DNA of 36,647 nucleotides from a virus (lineage: Duplodnaviria; Heunggongvirae; Uroviricota; Caudoviricetes), in the IMG/VR virus record IMGVR_UViG_2698536395_000034, one strand, 5' to 3'. This document shows positions 1 to 31,764 of this stretch, one piece after another; position 1 is the first letter of the stretch, and each line of letters opens with the position of its first letter. The position numbers were made by a program, and so were the translations under genes. The notes beneath the pieces are model-generated. The model was not told the DNA's origin, did no database searches, and saw nothing but the letters and a program-made list of their open reading frames with translations.

Positions 1-1284
1 TTACAGACTTCTGGAAGGTTGCGCAGCTCTTACAACACGCGGTTGATCTTCCGCAGCGTCTTCCAGCGCACTTAAATCACGGTCTTTCACCTCTGGCATT
101 TTCAGCGCAGAGATTAAACCAATTACTGAATATGCCATGATCATAATGGCGATCGGATACCAGGATTCCGTCATGGTGCAGAAAATACCCGCCAGGATAG
201 GACCAAAACCGGAAGCGATAAGACCACCAATTTCTTTAGAAATAGCCATCCGGGTAAAGCGGTTTTTACAGCCGAACATTTCTGCCATGGTAATGTTTTC
301 CAGAGCAAATAATCCCAGCACCGCACAGTTATGAATCACAATCAGTGCAACCATAATGGTGCTCGGGGCATAGCTTTTATCTACAATGATAGAAAGCATT
401 GGCCATGCCAGCACAATCGCGGAGGTATTCATAATAATATACGGGATCCGGCGACCAATTTTATCGGATAACCAACCAAGGAACGGAATGGTCATAAAGC
501 CGAGAATCGAACTAATCATCAATGCATCTGTTGGAATTGCTTTGTTAAACAATAACGTCTGCACTAAATAGCCTGCAAGGAAAGTCTGAATTAACCCGGA
601 GTTACCCGCCTGACCAAAACGCAGCCCTGTTGCCAGCCAGAAGGATTTGCTCTGGAACATGCTACCAGCAGGTGCAGGTTTTGCTGTGGGTTGGTTGCTG
701 TCGTTAACCTTCTCAAAGACCGGGCTTTCTTTCAGATTCATACGCAACCAGATAGCAAAGACCATCACGACAACGCTCGCCAGGAACGGTATACGCCATC
801 CCCACGCAAGCAGTTCCTCTTTACTGAGAATGAAGAACATAAAGGCCCAGATTGCCGTTGCGCTCAAGGTTCCGCAGTTAGTTCCCATAGCTACAAATGA
901 GGAGATAATTCCGCGCTTACCTTTTGGCGCATATTCCGCCAGCATCGTACCGGCACCGGAAATTTCCGCACCTGCACCCAACCCCTGAATAATACGCAGC
1001 GTCACCAGCAAGATGGGGGCAAAAACACCAATCTGTGCATAGGTCGGTAACACACCAATTAAGGTGGTACAGATCCCCATCATGGTGATGGTAATAAAGA
1101 GCACTTTTTTACGCCCTATTCTGTCGCCCATTTTGCCGAAAATAAATGCTCCGACAATACGCGCCACATAACCTGCACCGTAGGTTCCCATTGCCAAAAT
1201 TAACGCCATTGCCGTTGATGATTCAGGAAAAAATATTTCATGAAACACTAACGCTGCGCCGAGCGAATATAACTGGAAATCCAT
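1..1284 (-). CDS. ydfJ: MFS-family metabolite:H+ symporter, host gene flanking the prophage
   Basis: 427-aa ORF with TAA at 1..3; hydrophobic multi-helix profile and MFS-like motif GKMGDRIGRKK; sits next to ydfK/pin as in the E. coli ydfJ neighbourhood. Confidence 0.75.
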   Translation of the reverse strand: MDFQLYSLGAALVFHEIFFPESSTAMALILAMGTYGAGYVARIVGAFIFGKMGDRIGRKKVLFITITMMGICTTLIGVLPTYAQIGVFAPILLVTLRIIQGLGAGAEISGAGTMLAEYAPKGKRGIISSFVAMGTNCGTLSATAIWAFMFFILSKEELLAWGWRIPFLASVVVMVFAIWLRMNLKESPVFEKVNDSNQPTAKPAPAGSMFQSKSFWLATGLRFGQAGNSGLIQTFLAGYLVQTLLFNKAIPTDALMISSILGFMTIPFLGWLSDKIGRRIPYIIMNTSAIVLAWPMLSIIVDKSYAPSTIMVALIVIHNCAVLGLFALENITMAEMFGCKNRFTRMAISKEIGGLIASGFGPILAGIFCTMTESWYPIAIMIMAYSVIGLISALKMPEVKDRDLSALEDAAEDQPRVVRAAQPSRSL

Positions 1285-2618: not shown

Positions 2619-3209
2619 ATGTCTCGAATTTTTGCTTACTGTCGGATATCAACGCTGGATCAGACCATCGAAAATCAACGCCGGGAAATCGAAAGTGCAG
2701 GTTTTAAAATCAAACCTCAGCAAATAATCGAAGAACACATTAGCGGCTCAGCAGCAACCAGTGAGCGTCCTGGTTTTAACCGGTTGCTTGCTCGCCTGAA
2801 ATGTGGTGATCAATTGATTGTGACAAAACTGGATCGCCTTGGTTGTAATGCAATGGATATCAGGAAAACAGTGGAACAACTGACCGAAACAGGTATCAGA
2901 GTGCATTGCTTAGCATTGGGGGGCATTGACCTGACCAGTCCAACAGGAAAAATGATGATGCACGTAATTTCAGCAGTCGCTGAATTTGAACGAGACCTTT
3001 TACTTGAACGCACTCATTCCGGGATAGTAAGAGCCCGCGGCGCAGGGAAACGTTTTGGTCGACCACCTGTGTTAAATGAAGAACAGAAACAGGTGGTATT
3101 CGAACGAATTAAGTCAGGTGTAAGTATAAGTGCCATTGCCCGGGAATTCAAAACCTCGCGGCAAACCATTTTAAGAGCCAAAGCAAAACTTCAGACACCT
3201 GACATATAA
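2619..3209 (+). CDS. pinQ: serine recombinase, Pin/Gin/Hin/Cin-family DNA invertase
   Basis: 196 aa; N-terminal catalytic motif YCRISTLDQ, resolvase core and C-terminal HTH ([21 protein letters not shown]); lies next to tfa/stf as pin genes do. Confidence 0.9.
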
Positions 3210-3306: not shown

Positions 3307-3882
3307 CTACGGCAGTGCTGGCCATTCAATATCCTGTGCAGTTGACGTATCAACACGGTTCAGCAACACCCGATACTTTTTCCAGGCTTCCAGCAATGAG
3401 GTTTCTTCCTCCGTTGCGATTTCCAGATCTACAGCATCCTGAAGTGGCGCAATATGCTCACTGGCTACCTGCATCAGGCTGTTTTTTGTTTCTTCCGCCT
3501 CTCGGATCCGGAACAGTTTTTCTGCTTCTGCATCTTTCACCCAGGCTGTGCCGTTCCACTTCTGAAACTCCCCTTCCGGCGATAACCAGGTAACATTTTC
3601 CGGTAACGGACCGAGTTCAGAAATAAATAACGCGTCCCCTGACGCTACGTCATAAACCGTTTTACCCCGATGGTCTTCAACGAGATGCCACGATGCCTTA
3701 TCACTGTTGAAAACAGCCACAAAGCCAGCAGGAATATCTGGTGGTGCAATATCGGTACTGTTTGCTGGCAGACCTGTATGAGGCGGAATATATGCGTCAC
3801 CTTCACCAATAAATTCATTAGTTCCGGCCAGCAGATTATAAATTTTTATGGTCCGTGGTTGTTCACTCATTCTGAATGCCAT
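3307..3882 (-). CDS. tfa: tail fibre assembly protein (Tfa)
   Basis: 191 aa immediately downstream of stf with 1-nt stop/start overlap at 3882; sequence recognised as lambda/Mu Tfa family. Confidence 0.85.
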
Positions 3883-6771
3883 TATGCAAGCCTCACAATA
3901 TAGTTAAATGCGATGTTTTTGACGGTGTTTTCCGCGTTACCAGCAGCGTTAACGGTGATGGTGTGTCCATGTGAACCAATCGCAACGGAGTGCGTATGAG
4001 CACCAATACCGACAGTATGCGCGTGTGCACCTGCAGATGCTGCTGTGCCGGACAGTGAATGGCTATGATTACCATCTGTACTGGTATTCGCTAACCACCC
4101 CGTAGACATACCTACTGAGCCTTGTACACCCCAGGTATTTTGACCTGAGCTTGTATAACCATATTGATAAGTATCTTTAAAAACACTGGGGTTAAATCGA
4201 CGGCCATCTCTATGGCTGTGATTACCAGCTGCATTCGTGCTGCCACTTAAACTATGGGTATGCGCACCAGTGTTATTCGTGGATTTAGTGCCGTAATCAA
4301 ACGACGATGTGGTTTTCGTCCCCAAATCCGTACTGGATGCGCTGGCGCTGTGGGTATGCGATTTAATGCCGTCCTGTTCCTGAGACAATACGGCCCGACC
4401 ACTGGCAGGTTTGCCCTTAATCGTCCAGCCACGCATATCAGGGATCACGCCTGACGGATAAGCCGCTGCAAGTTTCGGGTATGCAGATTTGTCAAAAGCC
4501 TGCCCCTGCATCAGGGCATAGCCAGACGGAACGGTATCTGATGGCCACGGGATTGGTGCGCCAGGCGGATAAAACTGCTCTGATGGCGTATAGAGTGAAT
4601 AAACTGTACCGTCCGTTAACCCTTCCGGCTTATTAGCAGAATATGCTGGTGACGTATGAATCGTCACGCTGGCATTACTGGTATAATCCCATTGAATATT
4701 TACACCAGTCGCATAATTTCCGATTGCAACGTAAATATCGTAAGTATCACCAGATGTATTAACCCAGGCAAAATTTGTAAACCCTGTCAATGTGCGCTGC
4801 CATAAAGCACCAGTAATCCCCTTCGGATTACCATTACCTGCACGTAAAACAAGTTCAGATATACCTGCCTGTTGAGGTGACCCCACGTTAAATCCAGCGC
4901 CACCAATCAACGTAATTGAAACAACAGAACTCGCCTGTGGCATGGTTACCGTTGCTAATTTGAACCAACCAGCACCACCGCTGAATGACATTGTTGTTGA
5001 GTTAAGCGTACCAATATCTTTCGGCGTCAGTGTTATATCCGCTGAAAGCGCCTTACCATTCACCTTACGGGCAGAAGGTACCCGACCATTCGCATTGTCA
5101 TTAGCTGCTTTCACTGCTTTCGGTGTCGCAGCAAGCGTTTCAGATGTGCTGTTGGTTGCACTACTGAGCTGGACAATTCCTTTTTGTGCTGTCGTAGCGT
5201 CCTGTGCGGTGTATTTCCCGTTAGCCNNNNNNNNNNNNNNNNNNNNNNNNNNNNNNNNNNNNNNNNNNNNNNNNNNNNNNNNNNNNNNNNNNNNNNNNNN
5301 NNNNNNNNNNNNNNNNNNNTGCCGCCTGTGACTCGGAAGTGCTGTTGGTCGCACTGCTGAGCTGTACTACCCCCTTTTTCGTCGTGCTCGCATCCTCAAG
5401 CGCCACGGCGGATGCAATATCCTCTGCACGTTTTGCCGCTGTCTCAGCGCGCGTTGCTGCGGATTCTGCCGTACTTTTGCTCTGTGCTGCCGCTGCCGCA
5501 CTGCCAGCAGCCTCTGTCGCCTTCGTGGATGCCGTCGTGGCGCTGCCCCTCGCTGCTGACGCCTGTCTGGTCGCCTCATCTTTTGAAGCAGACGCAGATG
5601 ATGCCGATGACGCCGCCGAACTGGCGGACGATGCGGCAGCCGTTTTTGAGGATTCTGCGCTGGTTTCCGACGCTTTCGCGTTCGTTTCGGATGTCTTCGC
5701 TGCGGAAGCAGACCTCGCTACTGCGCTGGCCTGTTCAGTGGCTTCGCCAGCCTTCGTTGTGGCTGTTGAAGCGGATGATGCGGCGCTTTCTGCCGATTTT
5801 CCGGCGGCGGTGGCACTGACTGCTGCCTCCTCTGCCTTAATGGACGCCTCACGGGCCGATGATGCAGCTGCTGTCTCAGAGTCTGCCGCAGCTGAGGCGC
5901 TCTGTTCCGCTGCCGTTTCAGAAGACTTAGCATTCGTCTCGGACGTTTTTGCCGCCTTCACGGAATTTCCTGCCGCCATTGCCGAGGAGGCTGCACTGCT
6001 GGCGCTTGTGGAGGCGTTCGTTTCTGATGATTTTGCCGCCTCTTTGGAGGCCGCCGCATCTCTGGCTGAAGTGGCGGCTTCTGACGCTTTCGTCGTCGCA
6101 GTGGATGCAGAAGTGGCTGCTGATTTTTGTGACGCTGCAGCATTCGTTTCTGACGTTTTCGCGGCACCGGCACTGGTGGCCGCCGCGCTTTTTGAGGACT
6201 CTGCAGCGGCAGCACTTTTTGATGCTTCTGTGGCCTTTGTTGATGCTGTTCCTGCGCTGGAAGACGCTGACTGAGCCGACGTCGCGGCCTGCCCGGCTGA
6301 TGTGCTGGCTGCACGTGCTGAGCCTGCAGCATCAGTCGCATGGGTTGCCGCCTCACGGGCTGATGTGCCGGCATCGCCGGCTGACTTCTTCGCGGCTGCC
6401 GTGTTCTGTGCCACCGCGGACGCGTTACGCGCCACCTCTTCCACCATCAGCTCAAAACGGCGCAGTGCCTCCGGACGGGCATCATCCTCCGTCATGGCAC
6501 CGAGAAAATCATTCAGCGTACCGGGTCGGGAATCTTCATACACGGTGATGGTCCCGGCATGTGACGGCGGGAATCCTTCCACCAACAGAATAACGCTGTA
6601 CTGACCGTACTCAACGTCCATACTGTAACGCCCGGCTTCATCCGGATTTTCTGAGGCCAGCGTGTTCACCACCACCGTGGTGCTGTTACGTTTTGCTTTC
6701 AGCTGGATTGTGCAGTTCTGTACCGGTTTTCCTGTGCCGTCTTTCAGTACACCTGAAATCTTTACTGCCAT
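3882..6771 (-). CDS. stf: side tail fibre protein (Stf), interrupted by an N gap; true length and frame across the gap unknown
   Basis: N-terminus [20 protein letters not shown] (lambda Stf-like) with ATG at 6771; about 330-aa Ala/Ser/Thr-rich repeat region; C-terminal His-rich GxHxH repeats typical of tail-fibre tips; the two halves are in different frames across the 93 N. Confidence 0.8.
5227..5319. other. run of 93 N (assembly gap or masked sequence) inside stf
   Basis: Literal n characters 5227..5319. Confidence 0.99.
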
Positions 6772-6782
6772 ATTCACCCCAC

Positions 6783-7505: not shown

Positions 7506-10500
7506 TCAACGAATACTGATGCCGGAAGCAGCTTTTTTGGTCACAATCACCGTACAATCGGTGATATTGCCTGCCCCCTGATTGCCTTTCTGGAAAATCT
7601 TAAACTCCAGAGTGACGCTACCACCACCACTAGGCATATCAATAACTGCACTGTAACTACCGGGAATGGCCCCTTTAGTTTCTCTGGATGCGATTAATAC
7701 GCCGTTTTTGCGAACTTCAAAACCATAACCCGTGTATCGCGTGCCTCCTGGGTTATTTCCGCTCCCCGGATCGTCATACGCTATACCGTTAAAAATAATG
7801 GGCGGAATAATAATCTGGCGGTCAAAGTTATGATCATCGCTGATGGTGACTGTAACCGTACCGTTTGGTGTTTCCGTGTTACCCCACGTACCGACTTTTT
7901 TCGGGAAGGCTTTTGATACAGCTTTAACGAAATCCCCTCTGACCTGGGTCGCCTCCAGCATGCCCTTAATCGTACAGTTCTGGTTAATCGTGACATTGTT
8001 GAGCGTTCCTGAGTTCGCATTCACACTGCCACTGATATCCGCATTTTTAGCGGTCAGCTTTCCGTCTGATGTCAGGGAAAATACCGGAGGACTGCCACCG
8101 CTGGTAATGGTGGGGGCCGTCAGGCGCTTCAGGAACACGTCGTTCATGAATATCTGGTTGCCCTGCGCCACAAACATCGGCGTTTCATTCCCGTTTGCCG
8201 GGTCAATAAACGCGATACGGTTAGCGGCAACCAGAAACTGGCTCAGCTTGCCTTCCTCCGTGTCCTCCATGCTGAGGCCAATACCCGCGACATAATGTTT
8301 GCCGTCTTTGGTCTGCTCAATTTTGACGCCCCACATGGCATTCCATTTATCGTTGGCGTCTTTCCACTCTTTCGAAAACTCCTCCAGTTTGCTGGCGTTA
8401 TCCTCCGTCAGCTCGACTTTTTCCAGCAGCTCCTTGCCGAGATGGGATTCGGTTATCTGGCCTTTGAAAAAATCCAGGTAACCTTCCGCATCATCGCTCG
8501 CCCGACCGACAGCCTCCACAAATGCCGATTTGCCAACAGTGTTCACACTGCGGATATAAAAGTAATAATCATGGCCCGGTTTGATATTGATACTGGCGGC
8601 TATCCAGTACAGCGCCGTGCCAAGATAGCGGGCTGTGGTTTCAACCTGCCTGATATCGGTAATCCGCTTTTCCGAGAACCAGAACTCAAACTGTACCGTC
8701 GGGTCATAAATGGCAAGATGCGGCGTGGCGGTTATCTGAAAATAGCCCGGCGTCAGCTCAATCCTCGACGGTGCTGCCGGTGCGGCAATCCGGAACGATA
8801 CCGACGCCGCATCGCCCTGCTGCCCCCACGCATTTACCGCCCGGACTGTCAGCCTGTAGTTCCCCAGCGCCAGTTGCGTGAAGCGGTATGTGGTTTCCGT
8901 CGTCCGGGCCGTGCTGACCAGCCGCTCACTGCCGTCGTCCGCTGTTACGGTCAGACGGAGCAGGAAGCTCACGCCCTTCACCACCTTCGGTGTGTCCCAT
9001 CGCGCCAGCACCTGATATTCCCCGCTGTCTGCAGTGACTTCTGCGGTCAGGTGCTGCACCGCTGGCGGCGTGACACCATTCACCGTGCCACTCTGTTCGC
9101 CGTCAAAGTGCGCCCCGTTATCCACGATGGCCTCTTTTTCCGGCACATGCTGCACGGCGGTGATGGCATACGTGCCGTCGTCGTTCTCACGGATACTCAC
9201 GCAGCGGAACAGGCGCTGGCGCAGCGTCGGCAGCTTCAGCCCCCATACGCTGTATTCAGCAACACCCTCAGGAACACGGCTCACTTTTACCTTCACGCCG
9301 TCGGTGACGGACTGAACCTCCACGCTGACCGGATTGCCACTTCCGTCAACCAGGCTTATCAGCGTGGTACCGGAGGATGGCAGCGTGATTTCACGGTCGA
9401 GCGTCAGCGTCCGGGTCTGGCTGTTCACCGCCAGCACACGACCACCGGTGCTGATACCGGCATAGTCATCATCGCAGATTTCAATAACATCGCCCGGTAC
9501 ATGGCGAAGCCCTTCTGCGCCGACGCTGAAATCCACGGTCTGCGTCTCCAGCAGCTCCGTTTTAATCAGCCACAGCCCGGCGCGGTGTGCCTGCCCCCGG
9601 CTGGTACAGCCAAAGGCATCCATCTTCGTAACATTACGACCGTAACGGGCAATGGCCTGCGTATCTTCAACAAGCTCTGTCGCCGTCTCCCAGCCGTTGT
9701 TCGGGTCAATCCAGTTCACCTCAACGGCATTATGGCGGTCTTTCAGGGCGCTGAAGCTGTAGCGGAACGGCGCGCCATCATCCGGCATCACCACATTACT
9801 GCGGTTATAGGTCCACGCCTTATCCGACGGTCGGTTCTGCACGAACGTCAGCGTCTGCCCGTTCCATACCGGCATACAGCGCATCGCCGAGCAGAAATCA
9901 CTGAGAACGTCCCACGCCTTGCGCTGTGTGGTCAGGTACGCATTACAGGTGATGCGCGGCTCCGTGCCGCCAAAGCCGTCCGGCACTGACTGGTCGCAAT
10001 TCTGGCCGATGACATACAGCGCCCATTTATCCACATCCGCCGCACCAAGACGTTTCCCCATGCCGTAGCGCGGATGGGTAAGCATATCCCACAGACACCA
10101 GGCCATGTTGTTGCTGTATGCCGGTTTTAACGTTCCGTCCCAGATACCGCTGTATTGTCGCGTCTGCGGGTTATAATTCGACGGCACCTGCAGAATACGC
10201 CCGCGCAGATGATAATTACGGCTCACCTGCTGGCTGCCGAACTGCTCCGAATCCACCTGTACGCCGACCAGTGCCGTGTTCGGGTAGCACTGTTTCACAT
10301 CGATGATTTCGGTGTATGACGACCAGAGCGTTTTGTTCTGCAGCTGGTCTGTGGTGCTGTCCGGCGTCATCCTGCGCATCCGGATACTGAACGGGCGCGG
10401 CGGCAGGTTATCCACCACCACAGAGGCCAAGTACTGCGAGGTGGTTTTGCCTTTAATGGTGATGTCTTTTTCCGTCACCCAGCCACCGTTACGTTGTATC

Positions 10501-10919
10501 TGAACCAGCAGGCGGACTTCCGATGGATTCCTGTCCCCCTTTGAGGTGGTTTCCACCAGTGCCTGCACACCGAAGGTAAAGCGCAGACGGTCGATGTTTG
10601 CCGACGTGATGGTCCGGGTGATCGGCGTGTCGTATTTCACTTCCGTCCCCAGCACCGTCTCGGATCCGGAGGATTCAAATCCCTCCGGCGGTGTCTGCTC
10701 CTGCTCACCGGCCCGGAACACCACCGTGACGCCGGAGATGTTGGTATTCCCCTCAGTGTCCAGCACTGGCGTACTGTTCAGCAGCACGCTTTTTAATCCA
10801 TCCACCGGACCTTCAATCGGCCCTTCGCTGATGGCATCGATCACACTCAGCAACTGCGTGGACTTCAGGTTGTCCTTCGCTTCGCGCGGAGTATGCCCCT
10901 TACTGCTGCCTTTACCCAT
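7506..10919 (-). CDS. J: tail tip / host specificity protein J (central tail fibre)
   Basis: Start chosen at internal ATG giving [24 protein letters not shown] (lambda J N-terminus as I recall it); 1137 aa; downstream of I in lambda order. Confidence 0.93.
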
Positions 10920-10979
10920 TCCTAACGCTCCATAAACGACAAAACCGCCCGGAGGCGGTTTCACATAAAACGTTTTTCA

Positions 10980-18873: not shown

Positions 18874-19149
18874 TTACTCAATAAAGATCATTGGCTTACC
18901 GTTAAAACGTTCATGCCGTGTGACCGTCCATTGTTGTCCGTCATAAACAACGCGATCCCCGCGCCGTGGGCGGTATCCCGAAGAAAACACCACCAGAGAG
19001 ACCGCAGGTCCGGACAGAGCATTCAGCTCTGCCAGTGTTTCTCCCGGGATCACAATCATATCGACATCATTAATCGAGGCTGTCTTTCCCATCTTTCTGA
19101 CCGTGATCGCATCCATACGCGCTGCCAGCCGGGAAAAGGGATCAGACAT
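18874..19149 (-). CDS. putative head-tail joining / head completion protein (FII position)
   Basis: 91-aa ORF between head genes and Z; assigned by position only. Confidence 0.4.
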   Translation of the reverse strand: MSDPFSRLAARMDAITVRKMGKTASINDVDMIVIPGETLAELNALSGPAVSLVVFSSGYRPRRGDRVVYDGQQWTVTRHERFNGKPMIFIE

Positions 19150-19465
19150 TGAGTTTTACCGGCACTTCTTCTGCACTGGTTCCGGCATCTGCCCAGACAA
19201 CCCCGACCAGCGGCTCAGAGCCGCTGTTAGTCAGCTGAACTTTTCCTGACTTCAGATAAACCTTCTTACCCGTTTTCATGTCATCCGTTTTCAGCTTAGG
19301 CAGCATAAACACACCTTCGGTTATGCCGTCGCCTGTTTCTCCCTGTGGAATATCGGTCAGCGCCACCGCAAAAACATCCCCCACCTGCACCAGATCTCCG
19401 CTGCTGATGGCTGCACTGGCAACAATCGCCACCGTTTTTCCTTCTTCTACAAAATTCTTTGCCAT
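19142..19465 (-). CDS. small phage head-associated protein (DUF2190-like); function unknown
   Basis: 107 aa from ATG 19465 (GGAGA upstream), directly downstream of the capsid gene; Gly-rich; ORF-track upstream extension lacks an RBS. Confidence 0.4.
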   Translation of the reverse strand: MAKNFVEEGKTVAIVASAAISSGDLVQVGDVFAVALTDIPQGETGDGITEGVFMLPKLKTDDMKTGKKVYLKSGKVQLTNSGSEPLVGVVWADAGTSAEEVPVKLNV

Positions 19466-19551
19466 AACTGTCTCCGCACAGCCCCGTTCAGGGGCTGATT
19501 TCAGGTACAAAAAAAGCCCTTACGGGCCATCAGAGTTGTTGTCTGCGACGT

Positions 19552-21510
19552 TTACGCCGTACATTTCACCAGGCCGCGGTGATCAACTGGCGCAACACCA
19601 GCGTCAATACGCACTTTCGTTGTCACGCCATCCACACTGAAGCCCTCCATCTGATCAATATATGGCGTATCCACACCGTTGAGATAAGCCACTTCAATCG
19701 TATCGGAGCCTTTGGACGCAGCCAGGTAGAAGGTGGTCTGGCTGTTATCATCAAGACGAGGCTCTGCAATAACGGTCGCAAAATCTTTCACCGGGTTAAT
19801 AATACCGGCGTTAATGTCAGCCCCCTTGACACTTGAGGAGCGAATGACCTGGTTAGCAACAGACTCCATCGCCGTCGGTACCAGTACGAACGCAGGACGA
19901 ATATTCAGATGACGCTCACCCTCTTTCTGAACGCGCATCAACTGGCGGGCTTTATCCAGCGATGCCACGTCCATTGCCGCGCTCTCCAGTACGTTTGCAT
20001 GTTTCGCTTTATCGAACAGACTTACATTATCTGTGGAGATTTTCGGGTTAGACGTCAGAATGGCATAAACCAGATCGGCAATAGTGGATTTCGCCGCACG
20101 GCCCAGCTTCATCGGGACATCGGTCAGCATATTCAGATCATCATTGATAATGGCCTGACGGGTGATACTGAACAGCTCGCCATAGGTCGCCAGTGCAATA
20201 GTGGCCTGTTTATCTCCGGTGGTGACGTATTTATATTCTGCCCCTTCACGCACCTGACGCAGAGCACTGAAGCCCCCCATACCCACACGATGGGCAATTT
20301 TAAAATCAGACAACTGACCTTTCCGCGTCCACTGTTCATAGGTTTCAGGGGCATCTTCCCAGCCCTGCAGAATGGCTTTGTTCGCAACATCCAGCAGAAT
20401 ATTACCGAAGTCAGACGTACTGTGTGTGAACGCCGCACCGACCATCTGCATCGGGTTATAACTGGAAACACCAATACCACGTTCAGTCAGTGACATACGG
20501 GCATATTCACGCAGGGTCATCCCGTTGTAGACATTATCACGTTCAGTTTTTTCAAACCCGGCGCGCGCCATCAGCGCCTGGCGGATCCCGTCCCCCACAA
20601 AATTACCGTTACCGGCATAAATATGAGCCGGGGTATTTTTATTGGATGGCGTGGACTCGCGCCCCATCTCGTTCAACAGCTTTTCGCGGGCCTGCTCCAG
20701 CGAACATTCAGGATCGGCAAGACACTGAGCCTGCAACGACTGATAACGCCCGCCAAACATGGCAAACAGATCATTAATACCGTTTACACGCGCTTTTTGC
20801 TCTGCCAGGACCTGCGCACGGATGCTGTTTTCATCCACCACGGGTGCTGCTGCCTGCACTGGCGTCCGGGAGGCTGCAGGTCCATCATCCTGTACGCGTG
20901 GAGCACTGTTGCGTGGCGGAGTAATCATATTTCGAATGGATTCCGGCATCTTTTTAAATTCCTCTGTACGTTTTGACTGAATACATGCCATTGCCTTAAC
21001 GGCTGGTGTCACCTGATCAGCAAATCCCTGTGCCAGACATTCGGCACCGGACATCCAGGTCTCATCCGCCAGCATGGCAGCAATTTCATCGGTGGTTTTC
21101 CCGGTTTTCTGTGCATAAGCGGGTAACAGAACCGCCTCAACTTTATCGAGCAGGTCGGCATAGGTGCGCATGTCCTCCGCATCACCGCCCGTAAAGCCAA
21201 ATGGTTTATGAATCATCATGAAGGAGTTTTCCGGCATAATGACCGGGTTTCCTACCATCGCAATGACCGACGCCATTGACGCCGCCACACCGTCGACATA
21301 AACGGTAATGGACGCACCATGTGTTTTCAGCGCATTAAAAATGGCGATGCCTTCAAAGACATCGCCACCCGGTGAATTAATATGGAGATTAATGTGGGTG
21401 ATATCGCCCAGTGCATTCAGATCACTGATAAACTGCTTCGCTGTAACACCCCAGAAACCAATCTCGTCATAAATATAAATATCCGCGTCACTCTGGTGAC
21501 CAGCCTGCAT
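19552..21510 (-). CDS. prohead protease (ClpP/S49-like) fused to major capsid protein
   Basis: 652 aa from ATG 21510, 14 nt after the portal stop; N-terminal protease motifs INSPGGDVFEGIAIFNALK and GVAASMASVIA; no separate capsid, scaffold or decoration gene between portal and tail genes. Confidence 0.8.
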   Translation of the reverse strand: MQAGHQSDADIYIYDEIGFWGVTAKQFISDLNALGDITHINLHINSPGGDVFEGIAIFNALKTHGASITVYVDGVAASMASVIAMVGNPVIMPENSFMMIHKPFGFTGGDAEDMRTYADLLDKVEAVLLPAYAQKTGKTTDEIAAMLADETWMSGAECLAQGFADQVTPAVKAMACIQSKRTEEFKKMPESIRNMITPPRNSAPRVQDDGPAASRTPVQAAAPVVDENSIRAQVLAEQKARVNGINDLFAMFGGRYQSLQAQCLADPECSLEQAREKLLNEMGRESTPSNKNTPAHIYAGNGNFVGDGIRQALMARAGFEKTERDNVYNGMTLREYARMSLTERGIGVSSYNPMQMVGAAFTHSTSDFGNILLDVANKAILQGWEDAPETYEQWTRKGQLSDFKIAHRVGMGGFSALRQVREGAEYKYVTTGDKQATIALATYGELFSITRQAIINDDLNMLTDVPMKLGRAAKSTIADLVYAILTSNPKISTDNVSLFDKAKHANVLESAAMDVASLDKARQLMRVQKEGERHLNIRPAFVLVPTAMESVANQVIRSSSVKGADINAGIINPVKDFATVIAEPRLDDNSQTTFYLAASKGSDTIEVAYLNGVDTPYIDQMEGFSVDGVTTKVRIDAGVAPVDHRGLVKCTA

Positions 21511-21523
21511 CCTGAACCAGGAA

Positions 21524-23032
21524 TTATTCTTCGGACTGGTCGTCGGTGTGCTGCGGCTCCTGTCGTTTCGTTGCGGCACTACTGCCTCCTTTATCACTGG
21601 CCGGATCGGTATCAAATACCAGATCCAGCTTGCGGTTTTCATCAATTTCGGCCTTGCGCCGACGTTTGACATCATCCGGATTACGACCACCAGCACGTAC
21701 CCAGTCTGATTCTGTCGCCGCTCCACCACGAATCTGGATTTTCCAGGCCTCAGCCTCCTTAACAGGGTCAATCCACGGCATCACTGGTCCGGAATACACC
21801 GCGGTATACAGTGAAGAACGGTCAAGATCGCGGGGTAGCCTGATAACACCGGATGCCACAGCCTGTTTCAGCCATGCACGATACATCGGGCGGGTGACGG
21901 CACCAATAAACCAGTCCTGCAGGATCAGGTAGCCATCAGTGGATTCAACCAGCTCCTGACGCTGGGCGCTGTAAGTGCCGTTATAGTTGCGCGCTGTACT
22001 GGAAAAACTCAGACGACTGCCCGCCGCCACGGCACGCAACTGACCATTACGAAAAGTTTCAAGGTTAGGATTGGGGCGATCCGACTTCACCATTCCGATT
22101 TCTTCGCCGGGTTTCAGATCGTCGTAAATAATGCCCGGCTGAATGGTAAGCTCACGTTCATTCTCCTTTCTGCCATTACCATCCGGTTCATAGCTCTGCC
22201 CGTCGCCTTTCCTGATGTACATCCCCAGAGCAGCGGCGATCCTTGCTGCAGTCAGCTCAGAATCTTCATATTCTTTCAGGGCACTGAGGCGGATCAGCAC
22301 ACCGGACAACAAAGACGTCCCGCGCATCTGGTGCAGACGGCGAACAAATTTAAGATGCAGCATTCGCTCTGCATCCACTTCTTTGGTTTCCATCTGCCGT
22401 CCGGATACGGGACGGCTTTTATACACCAGATATTTTTCGGGACGCCCCCAGTCATCAACAAACACGCCCTGATTCAGCCTGTTGCTCTCATCACTAGTCA
22501 TGGGAATAAAGTCCGGCTCGAGCGCCTCCAGCCAGAAATGAACACCGGCAGAAGGCGCCAGGCTGTTTATGCGCCCGGAAACCATCTGGGCAAACACCTC
22601 ACCATCGCGCAGCCAGGTACGAAGCATCAGACGTTCCAGCATCGGACGGGTAAACTGCCCGGTGACTTCCGGGCTGACAGACCATTCACTCCATCGGGTG
22701 CGAATCTCCGCAGCCAGGTCACGGGCAATGGCCCCATTGCGTAATACCGGATGTGGCTCGACAATAATCCCGTTTTTCCCCACCACCCGTTCTTCCAGCT
22801 TGTCAAATACACCAATAACCAGATCGTGGTTGTTATCAAGGTAACGGGCCTGCTCACGTAACGACACGGCCCCGTACTGGCTTAACTGGTCGGCAGTTCG
22901 GTTCTCCCGTCGGGCTTTGTGTGTCCGCGTCGTTTTTACGGCCTCATAAGCCTGGATCACCGCACGGGAACGCAGCCTTGCCGCTTTCCATCCTGGTGAA
23001 AAAACGCCAATCACATCATCAAGAATTGCCAT
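21524..23032 (-). CDS. portal protein (lambda B-like)
   Basis: About 502 aa; start ATG overlaps the W-like stop (TGATG); located between terminase and protease-capsid gene. Confidence 0.85.
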   Translation of the reverse strand: MAILDDVIGVFSPGWKAARLRSRAVIQAYEAVKTTRTHKARRENRTADQLSQYGAVSLREQARYLDNNHDLVIGVFDKLEERVVGKNGIIVEPHPVLRNGAIARDLAAEIRTRWSEWSVSPEVTGQFTRPMLERLMLRTWLRDGEVFAQMVSGRINSLAPSAGVHFWLEALEPDFIPMTSDESNRLNQGVFVDDWGRPEKYLVYKSRPVSGRQMETKEVDAERMLHLKFVRRLHQMRGTSLLSGVLIRLSALKEYEDSELTAARIAAALGMYIRKGDGQSYEPDGNGRKENERELTIQPGIIYDDLKPGEEIGMVKSDRPNPNLETFRNGQLRAVAAGSRLSFSSTARNYNGTYSAQRQELVESTDGYLILQDWFIGAVTRPMYRAWLKQAVASGVIRLPRDLDRSSLYTAVYSGPVMPWIDPVKEAEAWKIQIRGGAATESDWVRAGGRNPDDVKRRRKAEIDENRKLDLVFDTDPASDKGGSSAATKRQEPQHTDDQSEE

Positions 23033-28157: not shown

Positions 28158-28364
28158 CTTCATTTTCACTTTTTTAAATCCAACGACAGACGGCTGGCAT
28201 TTAAGTATTGTGAAATATTATCAAATGTAATCATCATTGATTTACAAAAGATACATTTTGCCCCGAAAGGATTCATGTCAGAAACATCAAAAGATGATGT
28301 TCTATACTGGGAACCATGACAACACGGGCATCTAAAGTGAATATGGTTTGTAATATTGTCTACC

Positions 28365-28577
28365 TCAAAGCGCCACTACATGAACAGCGGCAGGACCTTT
28401 AGGTCCGTTCTCAATACCAAATTCAACTTCCTGATTCTCAGTTAATGTTTTGAAATCGTTGCTCTGAATTGCTGAGAAATGGACAAACACATCTTTGCTG
28501 CCATCTTTCGGCGTGATGAAACCAAAACCTTTTTCAGGGTTAAACCATTTCACTAAACCAGTCATTTTGTTAGACAT
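28365..28577 (-). CDS. cspI: cold shock protein (CspA family)
   Basis: 70 aa [38 protein letters not shown]... with RNP1/RNP2 motifs; recognised as CspI. Confidence 0.9.
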
Positions 28578-28939
28578 AATTATTACCTTTTGAAGAAATT
28601 AGCCCTTGGGCAGAATGGTCCGAAAAAAAATATCAGAGAGAAAAACCAACAAGGAAATCTCAAGAGGTACAAATAATAAAATTATAACAATGACTGCTTC
28701 AGATAAATTTGTAACAAACCAGAACACCATTAACGCATGATTAACCACCCATAGCAAGGATTACTTTTGTAAAGAAAAACACAGCAATGAAAGAATAGCT
28801 TTATTTATTAATAAAACGTGTCATTCTGATTAAGACCTTTTATCTTACCCTTAAGATTTCAGGAATTTTGGCTCATGGAAGAGTCCTTTTTATTTAAATT
28901 TTACATTCCGCGATGTAAATGTTCCGATTTAATATTACC

Positions 28940-30966: not shown

Positions 30967-31248
30967 TGAGATTGTGGTGCTTTTTGTGGGAGTCATCCAC
31001 TTACGCACTTTGTTTTGCGATGCCAGCAGTTAGCTTCTGCTGTGAAACTATTCATGCAGCAAACCTGCACTTCACCACAATGGTTAGCATACTTTTCCTG
31101 ATTAAGATTTTGCCAAATATGCTAGCCATTGTTTCATGTATTGGACCTCCTTACTTTTTATTAAAGAGATCCAATATTCACTACTCTGTCCGTATCTCTA
31201 CTCAGGCATCAGCCTTCTTCGTTATCGTATACAGACGAGCGATGAATT

Positions 31249-31464
31249 TTAATCAGTAATGATGACATTTGCTGCTGCAGGACCTTTAGCACCTCTCTCT
31301 ATAGAGAAGGTAACCTTTTGACCTTCAAATAAGGTTCGATAATTATCATTCTGAATCGCAGAAAAATGCACAAACACATCTTTACTACCATCAACAGGAG
31401 AAATAAAGCCGAAACCTTTATCAGCGTTAAACCATTTTACTAAACCAGTCATTTTATTTGACAT
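31249..31464 (-). CDS. cspB: cold shock protein B
   Basis: 71 aa [53 protein letters not shown]...; recognised CspB sequence. Confidence 0.92.
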
Positions 31465-31764
31465 TCTACATTCCTTAACTTGAGCCTTTCGGCATAAATG
31501 GTTTGCATAACAGAAACGACTTCGTACTTAATTGGAGAGACTCAAAGAAGGAATAAGTGAATAACACCTGAAATGAGAACTGCTTTAGTAAACTACTTCG
31601 TATATCGTCTGTTCTTCAAACCGACGCAATCATTAACGCATAGTTGAACATATGAAGCAATGTTTATTTTAGACATCCAGCCATCTTCAACCCCATCAAA
31701 AAACTATAGCTTTCTTCAGGAACGTGTGTATAGTGCGCCAAGTTATCAGTATTAAGGAATTTTT

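What the first reader, a model, noticed from the sequence alone, without database searches (positions are those of the whole stretch)
19552..21510. Single gene encoding a ClpP-like prohead protease fused to the major capsid protein
Between portal and the head-tail joining genes there is one 652-aa ORF with a ClpP/S49 protease N-terminus; no separate scaffold, decoration or capsid gene is present. This is a different head-gene layout from lambda's C/Nu3/D/E even though the tail genes are lambda-like, indicating a mosaic head module that likely self-processes during maturation.
Basis: partly seen in the sequence, partly recalled or inferred. Interest (0 to 1): 0.5.

Follow-up and report, generated by a model that had tools for sequence, protein, structure and literature searches.

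The report
Known fused protease–capsid phage gene
This is a real but already catalogued phage gene that makes the head-shell protein joined to its own maturation protease, found in about 40% of complete E. coli genomes; the one possibly new point is a conserved internal start signal that may also give a protease-free copy.

Summary
The ORF is real, on the minus strand, but two details of the observation are wrong. The best start is GTG 21579 with an AAGGAGG ribosome site, giving 675 aa and a 56-nt overlap with the portal gene, not ATG 21510 (652 aa). A decoration gene also follows at 19142-19465.

- The N-terminus is ClpP-like, with an invariant Ser-His-Asp triad.
- It is not a merged-gene artefact. 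It is 99-100% identical in cultured phages mEp460 and cdtI, occurs in 2125 of 5426 complete E. coli genomes, and is fused in at least 245 hits across species-representative genomes.

It is already known. It matches NCBIfam NF045540 [quoted passage not shown] (984 bits, cut-off 475). It is 70% identical to the Gifsy-2 "tripartite capsid gene" (Effantin 2010).

One addition may be new. An invariant in-frame ATG (20949) at the protease/linker junction follows a nucleotide-conserved AGGA. The same ATG-plus-ribosome-site pattern occurs in a sister family carrying an unrelated protease. This suggests a nested scaffold–capsid product, as in lambda C/Nu3. It is untested.

The parts
19552..21579 (-). 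Fusion gene: ClpP-like prohead protease + linker + scaffold-like domain + major capsid protein (675 aa, 73.4 kDa, GTG start)
   Evidence: The frame is open. GTG 21579 has the best SD. RefSeq CDS WP_001136588.1 has identical extent. NCBIfam NF045540 scores 984 bits over the full length.
21585..21591 (-). AAGGAGG ribosome-binding site for the GTG start, embedded in the 3' end of the portal gene
   Evidence: Sequence. Duplex -11.6 kcal/mol. Conserved in homologues of 73-77% identity.
21007..21444 (-). ClpP-like (S14) serine protease domain. Catalytic codons: Ser101 21277-21279, His124 21208-21210, Asp188 21016-21018 (675-aa numbering)
   Evidence: Pfam CLP_protease 4.6e-36. PDB ClpP alignments place AASM, MIH-P and GF-D on the ClpP triad motifs. 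The three residues are invariant in 37 sequences down to 53% identity. Codon positions.
20947..20964 (-). Junction element: GAGGAA (AGGA core), 10 nt, then in-frame ATG 20949 (Met211). Candidate internal start for a 465-aa, 50.6-kDa scaffold-capsid product
   Evidence: Met present in 73/73 distinct junctions, AGGA in 47/50 contexts. Highest synonymous-codon conservation in the gene lies just upstream.
20836..20922 (-). Hypervariable Pro/Ala/Thr/Gln-rich linker with length polymorphism
   Evidence: Alignment blocks. AlphaFold pLDDT below 50 for model residues 1-26.
20659..20832 (-). Three-helix scaffold-like (HK97 delta-like) domain
   Evidence: AlphaFold helices at model residues 31-54, 61-69 and 75-88, with pLDDT about 82-88. 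A disordered segment follows at model residues 90-107.
19555..20595 (-). Capsid region with HK97 fold. The Pfam Phage_capsid_4 core is 19564-20451. The exact mature N-terminus is unknown.
19505..19528 (-). Terminator-like hairpin (GGCCC-GTAA-GGGCT followed by T7) 24 nt after the capsid stop codon
   Evidence: Scan, sequence, fold. The same position is annotated as a rho-independent terminator in mEp460 and mEp213.
19142..19465 (-). Head decoration (cement) protein gene, 107 aa, DUF2190 / Phage_cement_2
   Evidence: Pfam 4.2e-20. PHROG 122 at 1.8e-46. 62% identical to Gifsy-2 STM1034. Same position in mEp460, F10, S1 and Gifsy-2.
21524..23032 (-). Portal gene (lambda gpB family), whose last 56 nt overlap the fusion gene
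   Evidence: Pfam Phage_portal_2 8.5e-82. RefSeq extent is 1509 nt.

Best explanation
This is the Gifsy-2-type 'tripartite' capsid gene of a lambdoid E. coli prophage of the mEp460/cdtI type.

One reading frame encodes, in order:
- a ClpP-like serine protease (Ser101/His124/Asp188);
- a variable flexible linker;
- a small helical scaffold-like domain;
- an HK97-fold major capsid protein related to Mu gpT-type capsids.

Inferred mechanism:
1. The capsid parts co-assemble on the portal into a T=7 procapsid, with the N-terminal parts inside.
2. The tethered protease then cuts away itself, the linker and the scaffold part.
3. The shell expands on DNA packaging.
4. Trimers of the small DUF2190 protein encoded by the next gene cement the shell.

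A probable refinement is scored separately as the novel case. The conserved in-frame ATG at the protease/linker junction may also give a protease-free scaffold-capsid protein. The full-length fusion would then be the minority, protease-delivering species, as with lambda C/Nu3.

Shown here: domain identities, fold, conserved triad, conserved fusion, gene context and homology to Gifsy-2. Inferred: assembly order, cleavage, T number and internal initiation.
For: - Domain calls: Pfam, NCBIfam and PHROG.
- ClpP triad aligned to solved ClpP structures and invariant across the family.
- Profile against PDB sequences at 6e-10.
- 70% identity over 97% of the length to the Gifsy-2 gene. Gifsy-2 capsids are reported as T=7, and Gifsy-2 is listed among phages with a trimeric cement protein at the 3-fold axes (PMC8814770, PMC8538268). 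[quoted passage not shown]
- The portal / fusion / decoration order is conserved in E. coli, Salmonella, Providencia, Pseudomonas and Stenotrophomonas phages.
Against: - No protein-level data for this phage were available. The cleavage site or sites, the copy number of the protease and the products actually made are unknown.
- The primary Gifsy-2 paper could not be read, so its details rest on citing papers and my recollection.
- The position of the mature N-terminus is ambiguous. The ordered model starts at residue 329 of the 675-aa protein. Mu gpT-type capsids and the Pfam capsid model begin at the equivalent of about residue 377-387.
Confidence: 0.9

Rival explanations
1. Polyprotein only. 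The gene yields a single 675-aa product, so every capsid subunit brings its own protease into the procapsid (about 415 per T=7 shell). The junction ATG and AGGA are conserved for reasons other than translation initiation, for example a protein-level docking or cleavage motif, or a ribosome-pausing SD-like site.
For: - The strong AAGGAGG site is at the 5' start, whereas the internal AGGA is weak (-6.0 kcal/mol) with a long 10-nt spacer.
- In the ClpP-type family the motif lies in a conserved peptide, [EQK][ED][FY]xxMP, so some protein-level constraint exists.
- Within single genes, the internal site is not an outlier against other windows (median null fraction 0.16).
Against: - The codon five positions before the Met is GAG, CAG or AAG in 47 of 50 distinct contexts and never GAA, CAA or AAA, although G-ending use in the same genes averages 0.46.
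- The strongest synonymous conservation in the whole gene sits just upstream of the ATG.
- In the sister family, which has an unrelated S78 protease and a non-conserved peptide context, 46 of 49 loci still have a junction ATG. In most of them GGAG/GAGG-like motifs lie 6-9 nt upstream (32 of 49 sites at -6 kcal/mol or stronger), encoded by different amino acids.
- Two unrelated proteases would not be expected to share a cleavage motif.
Confidence: 0.4
2. Artefact: two adjacent genes (protease, capsid) merged by a sequencing or assembly error in this window.
For: None found.
Against: - The identical ORF is in independent complete genomes (100% identity in several E. coli O26 chromosomes).
- It is in 16 cultured or induced phage records at 98-100% identity.
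- It is fused in relatives down to 53% identity in Pasteurellales, Vibrionales, Alteromonadales and Pseudomonas.
- Thousands of protein clusters have both Pfam domains.
Confidence: 0.01
3. The gene is only a protease/scaffold (lambda C/Nu3-like), as many GenBank records label it, and the capsid protein is encoded elsewhere.
For: GenBank product names such as 'protease/scaffold protein' and 'head-tail preconnector protein Nu3'.
Against: - The C-terminal roughly 300-350 residues have the HK97 capsid fold by sequence profile and predicted structure.
- No other capsid-family ORF lies between terminase and tail genes.
- Other records and RefSeq call it major head or capsid.
Confidence: 0.02
4. The ClpP-like domain is catalytically dead and serves only as internal scaffold mass.
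For: No biochemical data exist for this protein.
Against: Ser, His and Asp of the ClpP triad are invariant in all 20 close and 37 broader family members and align with the triad motifs of solved ClpPs.
Confidence: 0.03

Closest known systems
Salmonella phage Gifsy-2 'tripartite capsid gene' (STM1034.3n; Effantin et al. 2010, Virology 402:355)
   Same: 70% amino-acid identity over 97% of the length. Same order of protease, central domain and capsid. Same neighbours: portal upstream with overlap, and a 107-aa decoration protein downstream that is 62% identical. Lambda-like Z/U/V tail genes follow.
   Different: The variable linker differs in length and sequence. The 5' start is an ATG 46 codons before the YDEIG motif in Gifsy-2, against a GTG 36 codons before it here. 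No structural or proteomic data exist for the window's phage.
NCBIfam NF045540 (scaf_prot_MCP1), 'ClpP-like prohead protease/major capsid protein fusion protein'
   Same: Full-length match (model positions 2-651 of 652), 984 bits against a cut-off of 475. RefSeq gives this name to the identical protein WP_001136588.1.
   Different: Nothing. The window's gene is an ordinary member.
NCBIfam NF045541 (scaf_prot_MCP2), e.g. Stenotrophomonas phage S1 gp8 'major head and protease protein'
   Same: Shares the linker, scaffold-like and capsid parts (residues 197-649 of the 652-aa reading, 399 bits, about 33% identity). Same portal / fusion / decoration order. Same conserved junction ATG with a ribosome-site-like motif.
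   Different: The N-terminal protease is unrelated: Pfam PF04586, Peptidase_S78, HK97 gp4-type in many members. The window protein scores below that model's cut-off (399 against 525), so it is not a member.
Phage lambda head genes B, C/Nu3, D, E
   Same: The portal and terminase are lambda-family. A clan-related serine protease gene directly follows the portal gene. A small decoration protein stabilises the shell. If the internal start is used, it has the same nested logic as C/Nu3.
   Different: The capsid protein is in the same frame as the protease rather than a separate E gene. The decoration protein is DUF2190 / Phage_cement_2, not a gpD match, and lies after the capsid gene rather than before it. 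The protease is S14 ClpP-like rather than S49.
Phage HK97 gp4 protease / gp5 capsid with N-terminal delta domain
   Different: In HK97 the protease is a separate S78 gene. HK97 has no decoration protein and cross-links its subunits (established knowledge).

Membership tests
ClpP-like prohead protease/major capsid protein fusion (NF045540; Gifsy-2 type) | Full-length match to the curated family model above its cut-off | tested here: met
   984 bits against a cut-off of 475, model positions 2-651 of 652.
ClpP-like prohead protease/major capsid protein fusion (NF045540; Gifsy-2 type) | N-terminal S14 (ClpP) domain with a Ser-His-Asp triad | tested here: met
   Pfam CLP_protease 4.6e-36. Triad motifs align to solved ClpPs. 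Ser101, His124 and Asp188 are invariant.
ClpP-like prohead protease/major capsid protein fusion (NF045540; Gifsy-2 type) | C-terminal HK97-fold major capsid domain in the same uninterrupted ORF | tested here: met
ClpP-like prohead protease/major capsid protein fusion (NF045540; Gifsy-2 type) | Head-module context: portal immediately upstream, small decoration gene downstream | tested here: met
   for the window. The same order is seen.
ClpP-like prohead protease/major capsid protein fusion (NF045540; Gifsy-2 type) | Proteolytic maturation to a C-terminal capsid fragment present in virions | not testable with these tools
   Needs virion proteomics or N-terminal sequencing.
ClpP (S14) housekeeping protease | Score above the ClpP equivalog cut-offs; tetradecameric barrel working with a Clp ATPase | tested here: not met
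   TIGR00493 scores 60 bits against a cut-off of 308.6, and the other ClpP equivalogs are also far below cut-off. It is a phage head-maturation relative (NF045542, 217 bits against a cut-off of 120), not cellular ClpP. Oligomeric state was not tested.
Lambda-type head module (C/Nu3, D, E) | Separate major capsid gene E and a gpD-family decoration protein | tested here: not met
   There is no separate capsid ORF. The decoration protein matches Phage_cement_2, with no gpD-family hit at E of 0.01 or below.
Nested protease/scaffold gene pairs (lambda C-Nu3, Mu I-Z, herpesvirus UL26-UL26.5) | In-frame internal start with its own ribosome-binding signal, giving a C-terminally identical shorter product | tested here: inconclusive
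   Conserved ATG and AGGA, and the same pattern in the S78-type sister family, support a start site. No product has been observed.
Prohead protease/MCP fusion, S78 type (NF045541) | Score above cut-off, including the N-terminal S78 protease part | tested here: not met
   399 bits against a cut-off of 525. Only residues 197-649 match.

The most novel reading that the evidence does not exclude
The 'fusion' is really a nested gene pair. Ribosomes starting at GTG 21579 make the 73-kDa protease-scaffold-capsid protein. Ribosomes starting at the conserved internal ATG 20949, with an AGGA 10 nt upstream, make a 50.6-kDa scaffold-capsid protein without protease. The shared capsid part would carry a limited number of protease copies into each procapsid. 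This would extend the lambda C/Nu3 and herpesvirus UL26/UL26.5 principle to phages whose scaffold is fused to the capsid protein.

The same junction ATG plus SD signal is present in the sister family, which has an unrelated S78 protease. I could not check whether the Gifsy-2 paper already raised this.
Probability: 0.5. Interest if true: 0.5.

Novelty: already known. Interest (0 to 1): 0.2.

Why it matters
As stated, the finding adds nothing new. It re-identifies a curated protein family, with an experimentally imaged member (Gifsy-2), that sits in prophages of about 40% of complete E. coli genomes, including Stx- and Cdt-converting phages.

It has practical value for annotation. GenBank records variously call this gene protease, scaffold, Nu3, 'terminase protein' or major head protein. 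An automated capsid-finding study failed to recover an HK97-fold MCP for Gifsy-2 (PMC8814770).

The conserved junction ATG and ribosome-site signal, if functional, would explain how these phages set the protease-to-capsid ratio. It would also show that two fusion families with unrelated proteases share one expression strategy.

Tried and rejected
- AlphaFold on the full 652 aa with a shallow alignment of 20 sequences at 75% identity or more gave a useless model (pLDDT 35.3). I rebuilt the alignment with Pseudomonas and S78-type relatives from two further homologue searches and predicted residues 197-652.
- phmmer of the whole protein against PDB sequences listed only ClpP in the top 60. The capsid half alone gave weak JBD30-type hits at 2.7e-4, improved to 6e-10 with a profile.
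- The IMG/VR scan with alignment A2 returned only relatives at 72% identity or more, useless for diversity. It was replaced by an S78-type scan and a species-representative genome scan.
- The Effantin 2010 paper is not held.
- Ralstonia phage YO178_1, which I hoped would be an unfused control, is also a fusion of the S78 type.
- S49/SppA membership was rejected at 21.8 bits against a cut-off of 155.
- No sigma-70-like promoter was found inside or around the gene.

Full report
**The observation.** The window has an uninterrupted frame on the minus strand, from 21771 to the stop at 19552-19554.
- That ATG has essentially no ribosome-binding site (-2.2 kcal/mol).
- GTG 21579, 23 codons upstream, follows AAGGAGG with a 5-nt spacer (-11.6 kcal/mol). 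This is the best of all in-frame starts.
- The GTG and its site are conserved in phages 1720a-02, mEp213 and a Klebsiella phage. The ATG is missing in Gifsy-2, Fels-1 and Pseudomonas F10, which use upstream starts with good sites.
- tblastn matches in Pseudomonas phages begin at residue 18 of the 675-aa reading, upstream of that ATG.
- RefSeq annotates the identical gene as 675 aa, overlapping the portal gene by 56 nt.
- In 49 diverse relatives, the best-supported start typically overlaps the upstream ORF by 14-95 nt.

The gene is therefore most likely 19552-21579.

**What the protein is.**
- Pfam finds CLP_protease at residues 23-168 (4.6e-36) and Phage_capsid_4 at 354-649 (6e-55), in 652-aa numbering.
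- Solved ClpP structures match at 8e-16. The motifs AASM, MIH-P and GF-D align with the ClpP Ser, His and Asp motifs. The identity of these as the triad is established knowledge of ClpP.
- Those residues (Ser101, His124, Asp188 in 675-aa numbering) are invariant in 20 close and 37 broader relatives.
- It is a phage head-maturation relative of ClpP, not cellular ClpP or S49.

- A first AlphaFold run with a shallow alignment failed (pLDDT 35).
- With 74 sequences spanning 30-99% identity, residues 197-652 gave pLDDT 82.7 and pTM 0.69.
- The model has a disordered linker (model residues 1-26), three helices (31-88), a second disordered stretch (90-107), and then a large alpha/beta domain.
- All 50 top Foldseek hits against the PDB are HK97-fold capsids or encapsulins (probability 1.00, E from 6e-9).
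- A sequence profile hits the JBD30-type capsid at 6e-10.

**Not an artefact, and not rare.**
- The gene is 98.4-99.6% identical at the DNA level in 16 phage records, including mEp460, cdtI, Ayreon, Tritos and HannyBb.
- 74 phage records carry a full-length homologue.
- 2125 of 5426 complete E. coli genomes carry it, with up to 6 copies. The best-matching records are annotated 'ClpP-like prohead protease/major capsid protein fusion protein'.
- At least 245 hits in species-representative genomes across Enterobacterales, Pasteurellales, Vibrionales, Alteromonadales and Pseudomonas encode a fused relative.

**Context.**
- The ORF at 19142-19465 (107 aa) is a Phage_cement_2/DUF2190 protein (4e-20; PHROG 'head decoration' 1.8e-46). 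It is 62% identical to the Gifsy-2 protein in the same position.
- The order portal / fusion / decoration is conserved in every annotated relative inspected.
- The terminase large subunit and portal are lambda-family, and Z, U and V follow. Only the protease-to-decoration block differs from lambda.

**Comparison with what is known.**
- The protein matches NCBIfam NF045540 over its full length (984 bits, cut-off 475).
- It is 70% identical to the Gifsy-2 gene. The held literature describes that gene as a fusion of prohead protease and coat protein (PMC12315714).
- Gifsy-2 capsids are T=7 (PMC8814770), and Gifsy-2 is listed among phages with an additional trimeric cement protein at the 3-fold axes (PMC8538268). 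These papers cite Effantin et al. 2010, which I could not read.
- From memory, that paper describes an N-terminal ClpP-like protease, a central domain of about 200 residues with a possible scaffolding role, and a C-terminal capsid protein modelled with HK97 gp5 and lambda gpD.
- The finding is therefore already known.

**Mechanism (inferred).**
1. The capsid parts assemble on the portal, with protease, linker and helical domain inside.
2. The serine protease removes them.
3. The shell expands on packaging, and the DUF2190 protein cements it.

The mature N-terminus cannot be fixed here. The ordered model begins at residue 329 of 675 (37.8 kDa to the end). The Pfam capsid model begins at residue 377 (32.4 kDa), and Mu-gpT-type chains begin about ten residues further on.

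**A possibly new layer: an internal start.** An in-frame ATG (20949, Met211, context EEFKK|MPESIRNM) sits exactly at the protease/linker junction.

In the ClpP-type family:
- The Met is present in 73 of 73 distinct junction sequences.
- The codon five positions upstream is GAG, CAG or AAG in 47 of 50 distinct nucleotide contexts, and never GAA, CAA or AAA. G-ending codons for these amino acids average 0.46 in the same genes.
- The amino acid varies (E, Q or K) while the nucleotides AGGA do not.
- Among eight divergent homologues, the 9-codon window with the highest synonymous-codon conservation in the whole gene lies immediately upstream of this ATG (0.73 against a mean of 0.47).

In the sister family NF045541:
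- This family has the same linker, scaffold and capsid parts behind an unrelated S78 protease.
- 46 of 49 diverse IMG/VR loci have a junction ATG. In most of them a GGAG/GAGG-type motif lies 6-9 nt upstream and is encoded by different amino acids (32 of 49 sites at -6 kcal/mol or stronger).
- The median fraction of equally good windows elsewhere in the same gene is 0.02.

This pattern fits a nested internal start giving a 465-aa scaffold-capsid protein (50.6 kDa), analogous to lambda C/Nu3.

Caveats:
- The site in the window's family is weak, with a long spacer.
- Sequences are phylogenetically related, so the naive probabilities are overstated.
- A pausing or protein-level role is not excluded.
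- No product has been seen.

I rate this at about 0.5.

If only the full-length product were made, each T=7 procapsid would hold about 415 copies of a 35.6-kDa internal part. That is roughly 15 MDa, several times the internal load of HK97. This is my own rough estimate, using the mass.

**Verdict.** Interest is low, apart from the testable nested-start hypothesis.

Noticed in passing
window 19479-19528 (-): Two stem-loops lie between the capsid stop and the decoration gene. The first is a terminator-like GGCCC/GGGCT hairpin followed by T7. The second is CAGCCCC-TGAAC-GGGGCTG, just before the decoration gene's ribosome site. The 91-nt region folds with z = -2.3. mEp460 and mEp213 records annotate a terminator at this position. 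It may tune capsid-to-decoration expression or stabilise the upstream mRNA.
   Followed up: partly
L004 2002-3984; L090-L167: A sister family (NF045541) has the same linker, scaffold and capsid module and the same portal/decoration neighbours. It carries an HK97-type S78 protease (PF04586) in place of the ClpP-like one, so the protease has been displaced within a fused gene.
   Followed up: partly
window 28338-28723 (-) and 31233-31625 (-): Two Rfam cspA thermoregulator matches (112.8 and 161.6 bits, gathering score 78) lie in the low-GC region between the Q antiterminator and the lysis/terminase genes. This implies two prophage-borne cold-shock-protein genes with their 5' UTR thermosensors.
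   Followed up: no
window 2619-3209 (+), 3341-3539 (-), 3882-6777 (-): A serine DNA invertase (Resolvase + HTH_7) sits next to the tail-fibre genes, suggesting an invertible host-range switch as in Mu, P1 or LLS. There is also an Rfam IS009 RNA match (226.7 bits) inside the tail-fibre-assembly region.
   Followed up: no
window 1-1284 (-): An MFS transporter gene runs to the left edge of the window and is probably host DNA. The prophage end would then lie between about 1284 and 2600.
   Followed up: no
PMC8814770: Public annotation of this gene is inconsistent: protease, protease/scaffold, Nu3, 'terminase protein', major head protein. An automated pipeline failed to recover an HK97-fold MCP for Gifsy-2.
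   Followed up: partly
proteins P0006, P0009, P0033, P0061, P0079: Some database entries join this protein to terminase, portal, tape-measure, tail L or tail J domains (up to 1135 aa). Most come from a single contig and are probably frameshift or assembly artefacts or prophage rearrangements. P0061 (37 contigs) and P0079 (18 contigs) recur.
   Followed up: no
window 8295-9989 (+): A 564-aa ORF lies antisense inside the gpJ tail-tip gene (7506-10964, minus strand). It is most likely a chance open frame in GC-rich coding sequence.
   Followed up: no
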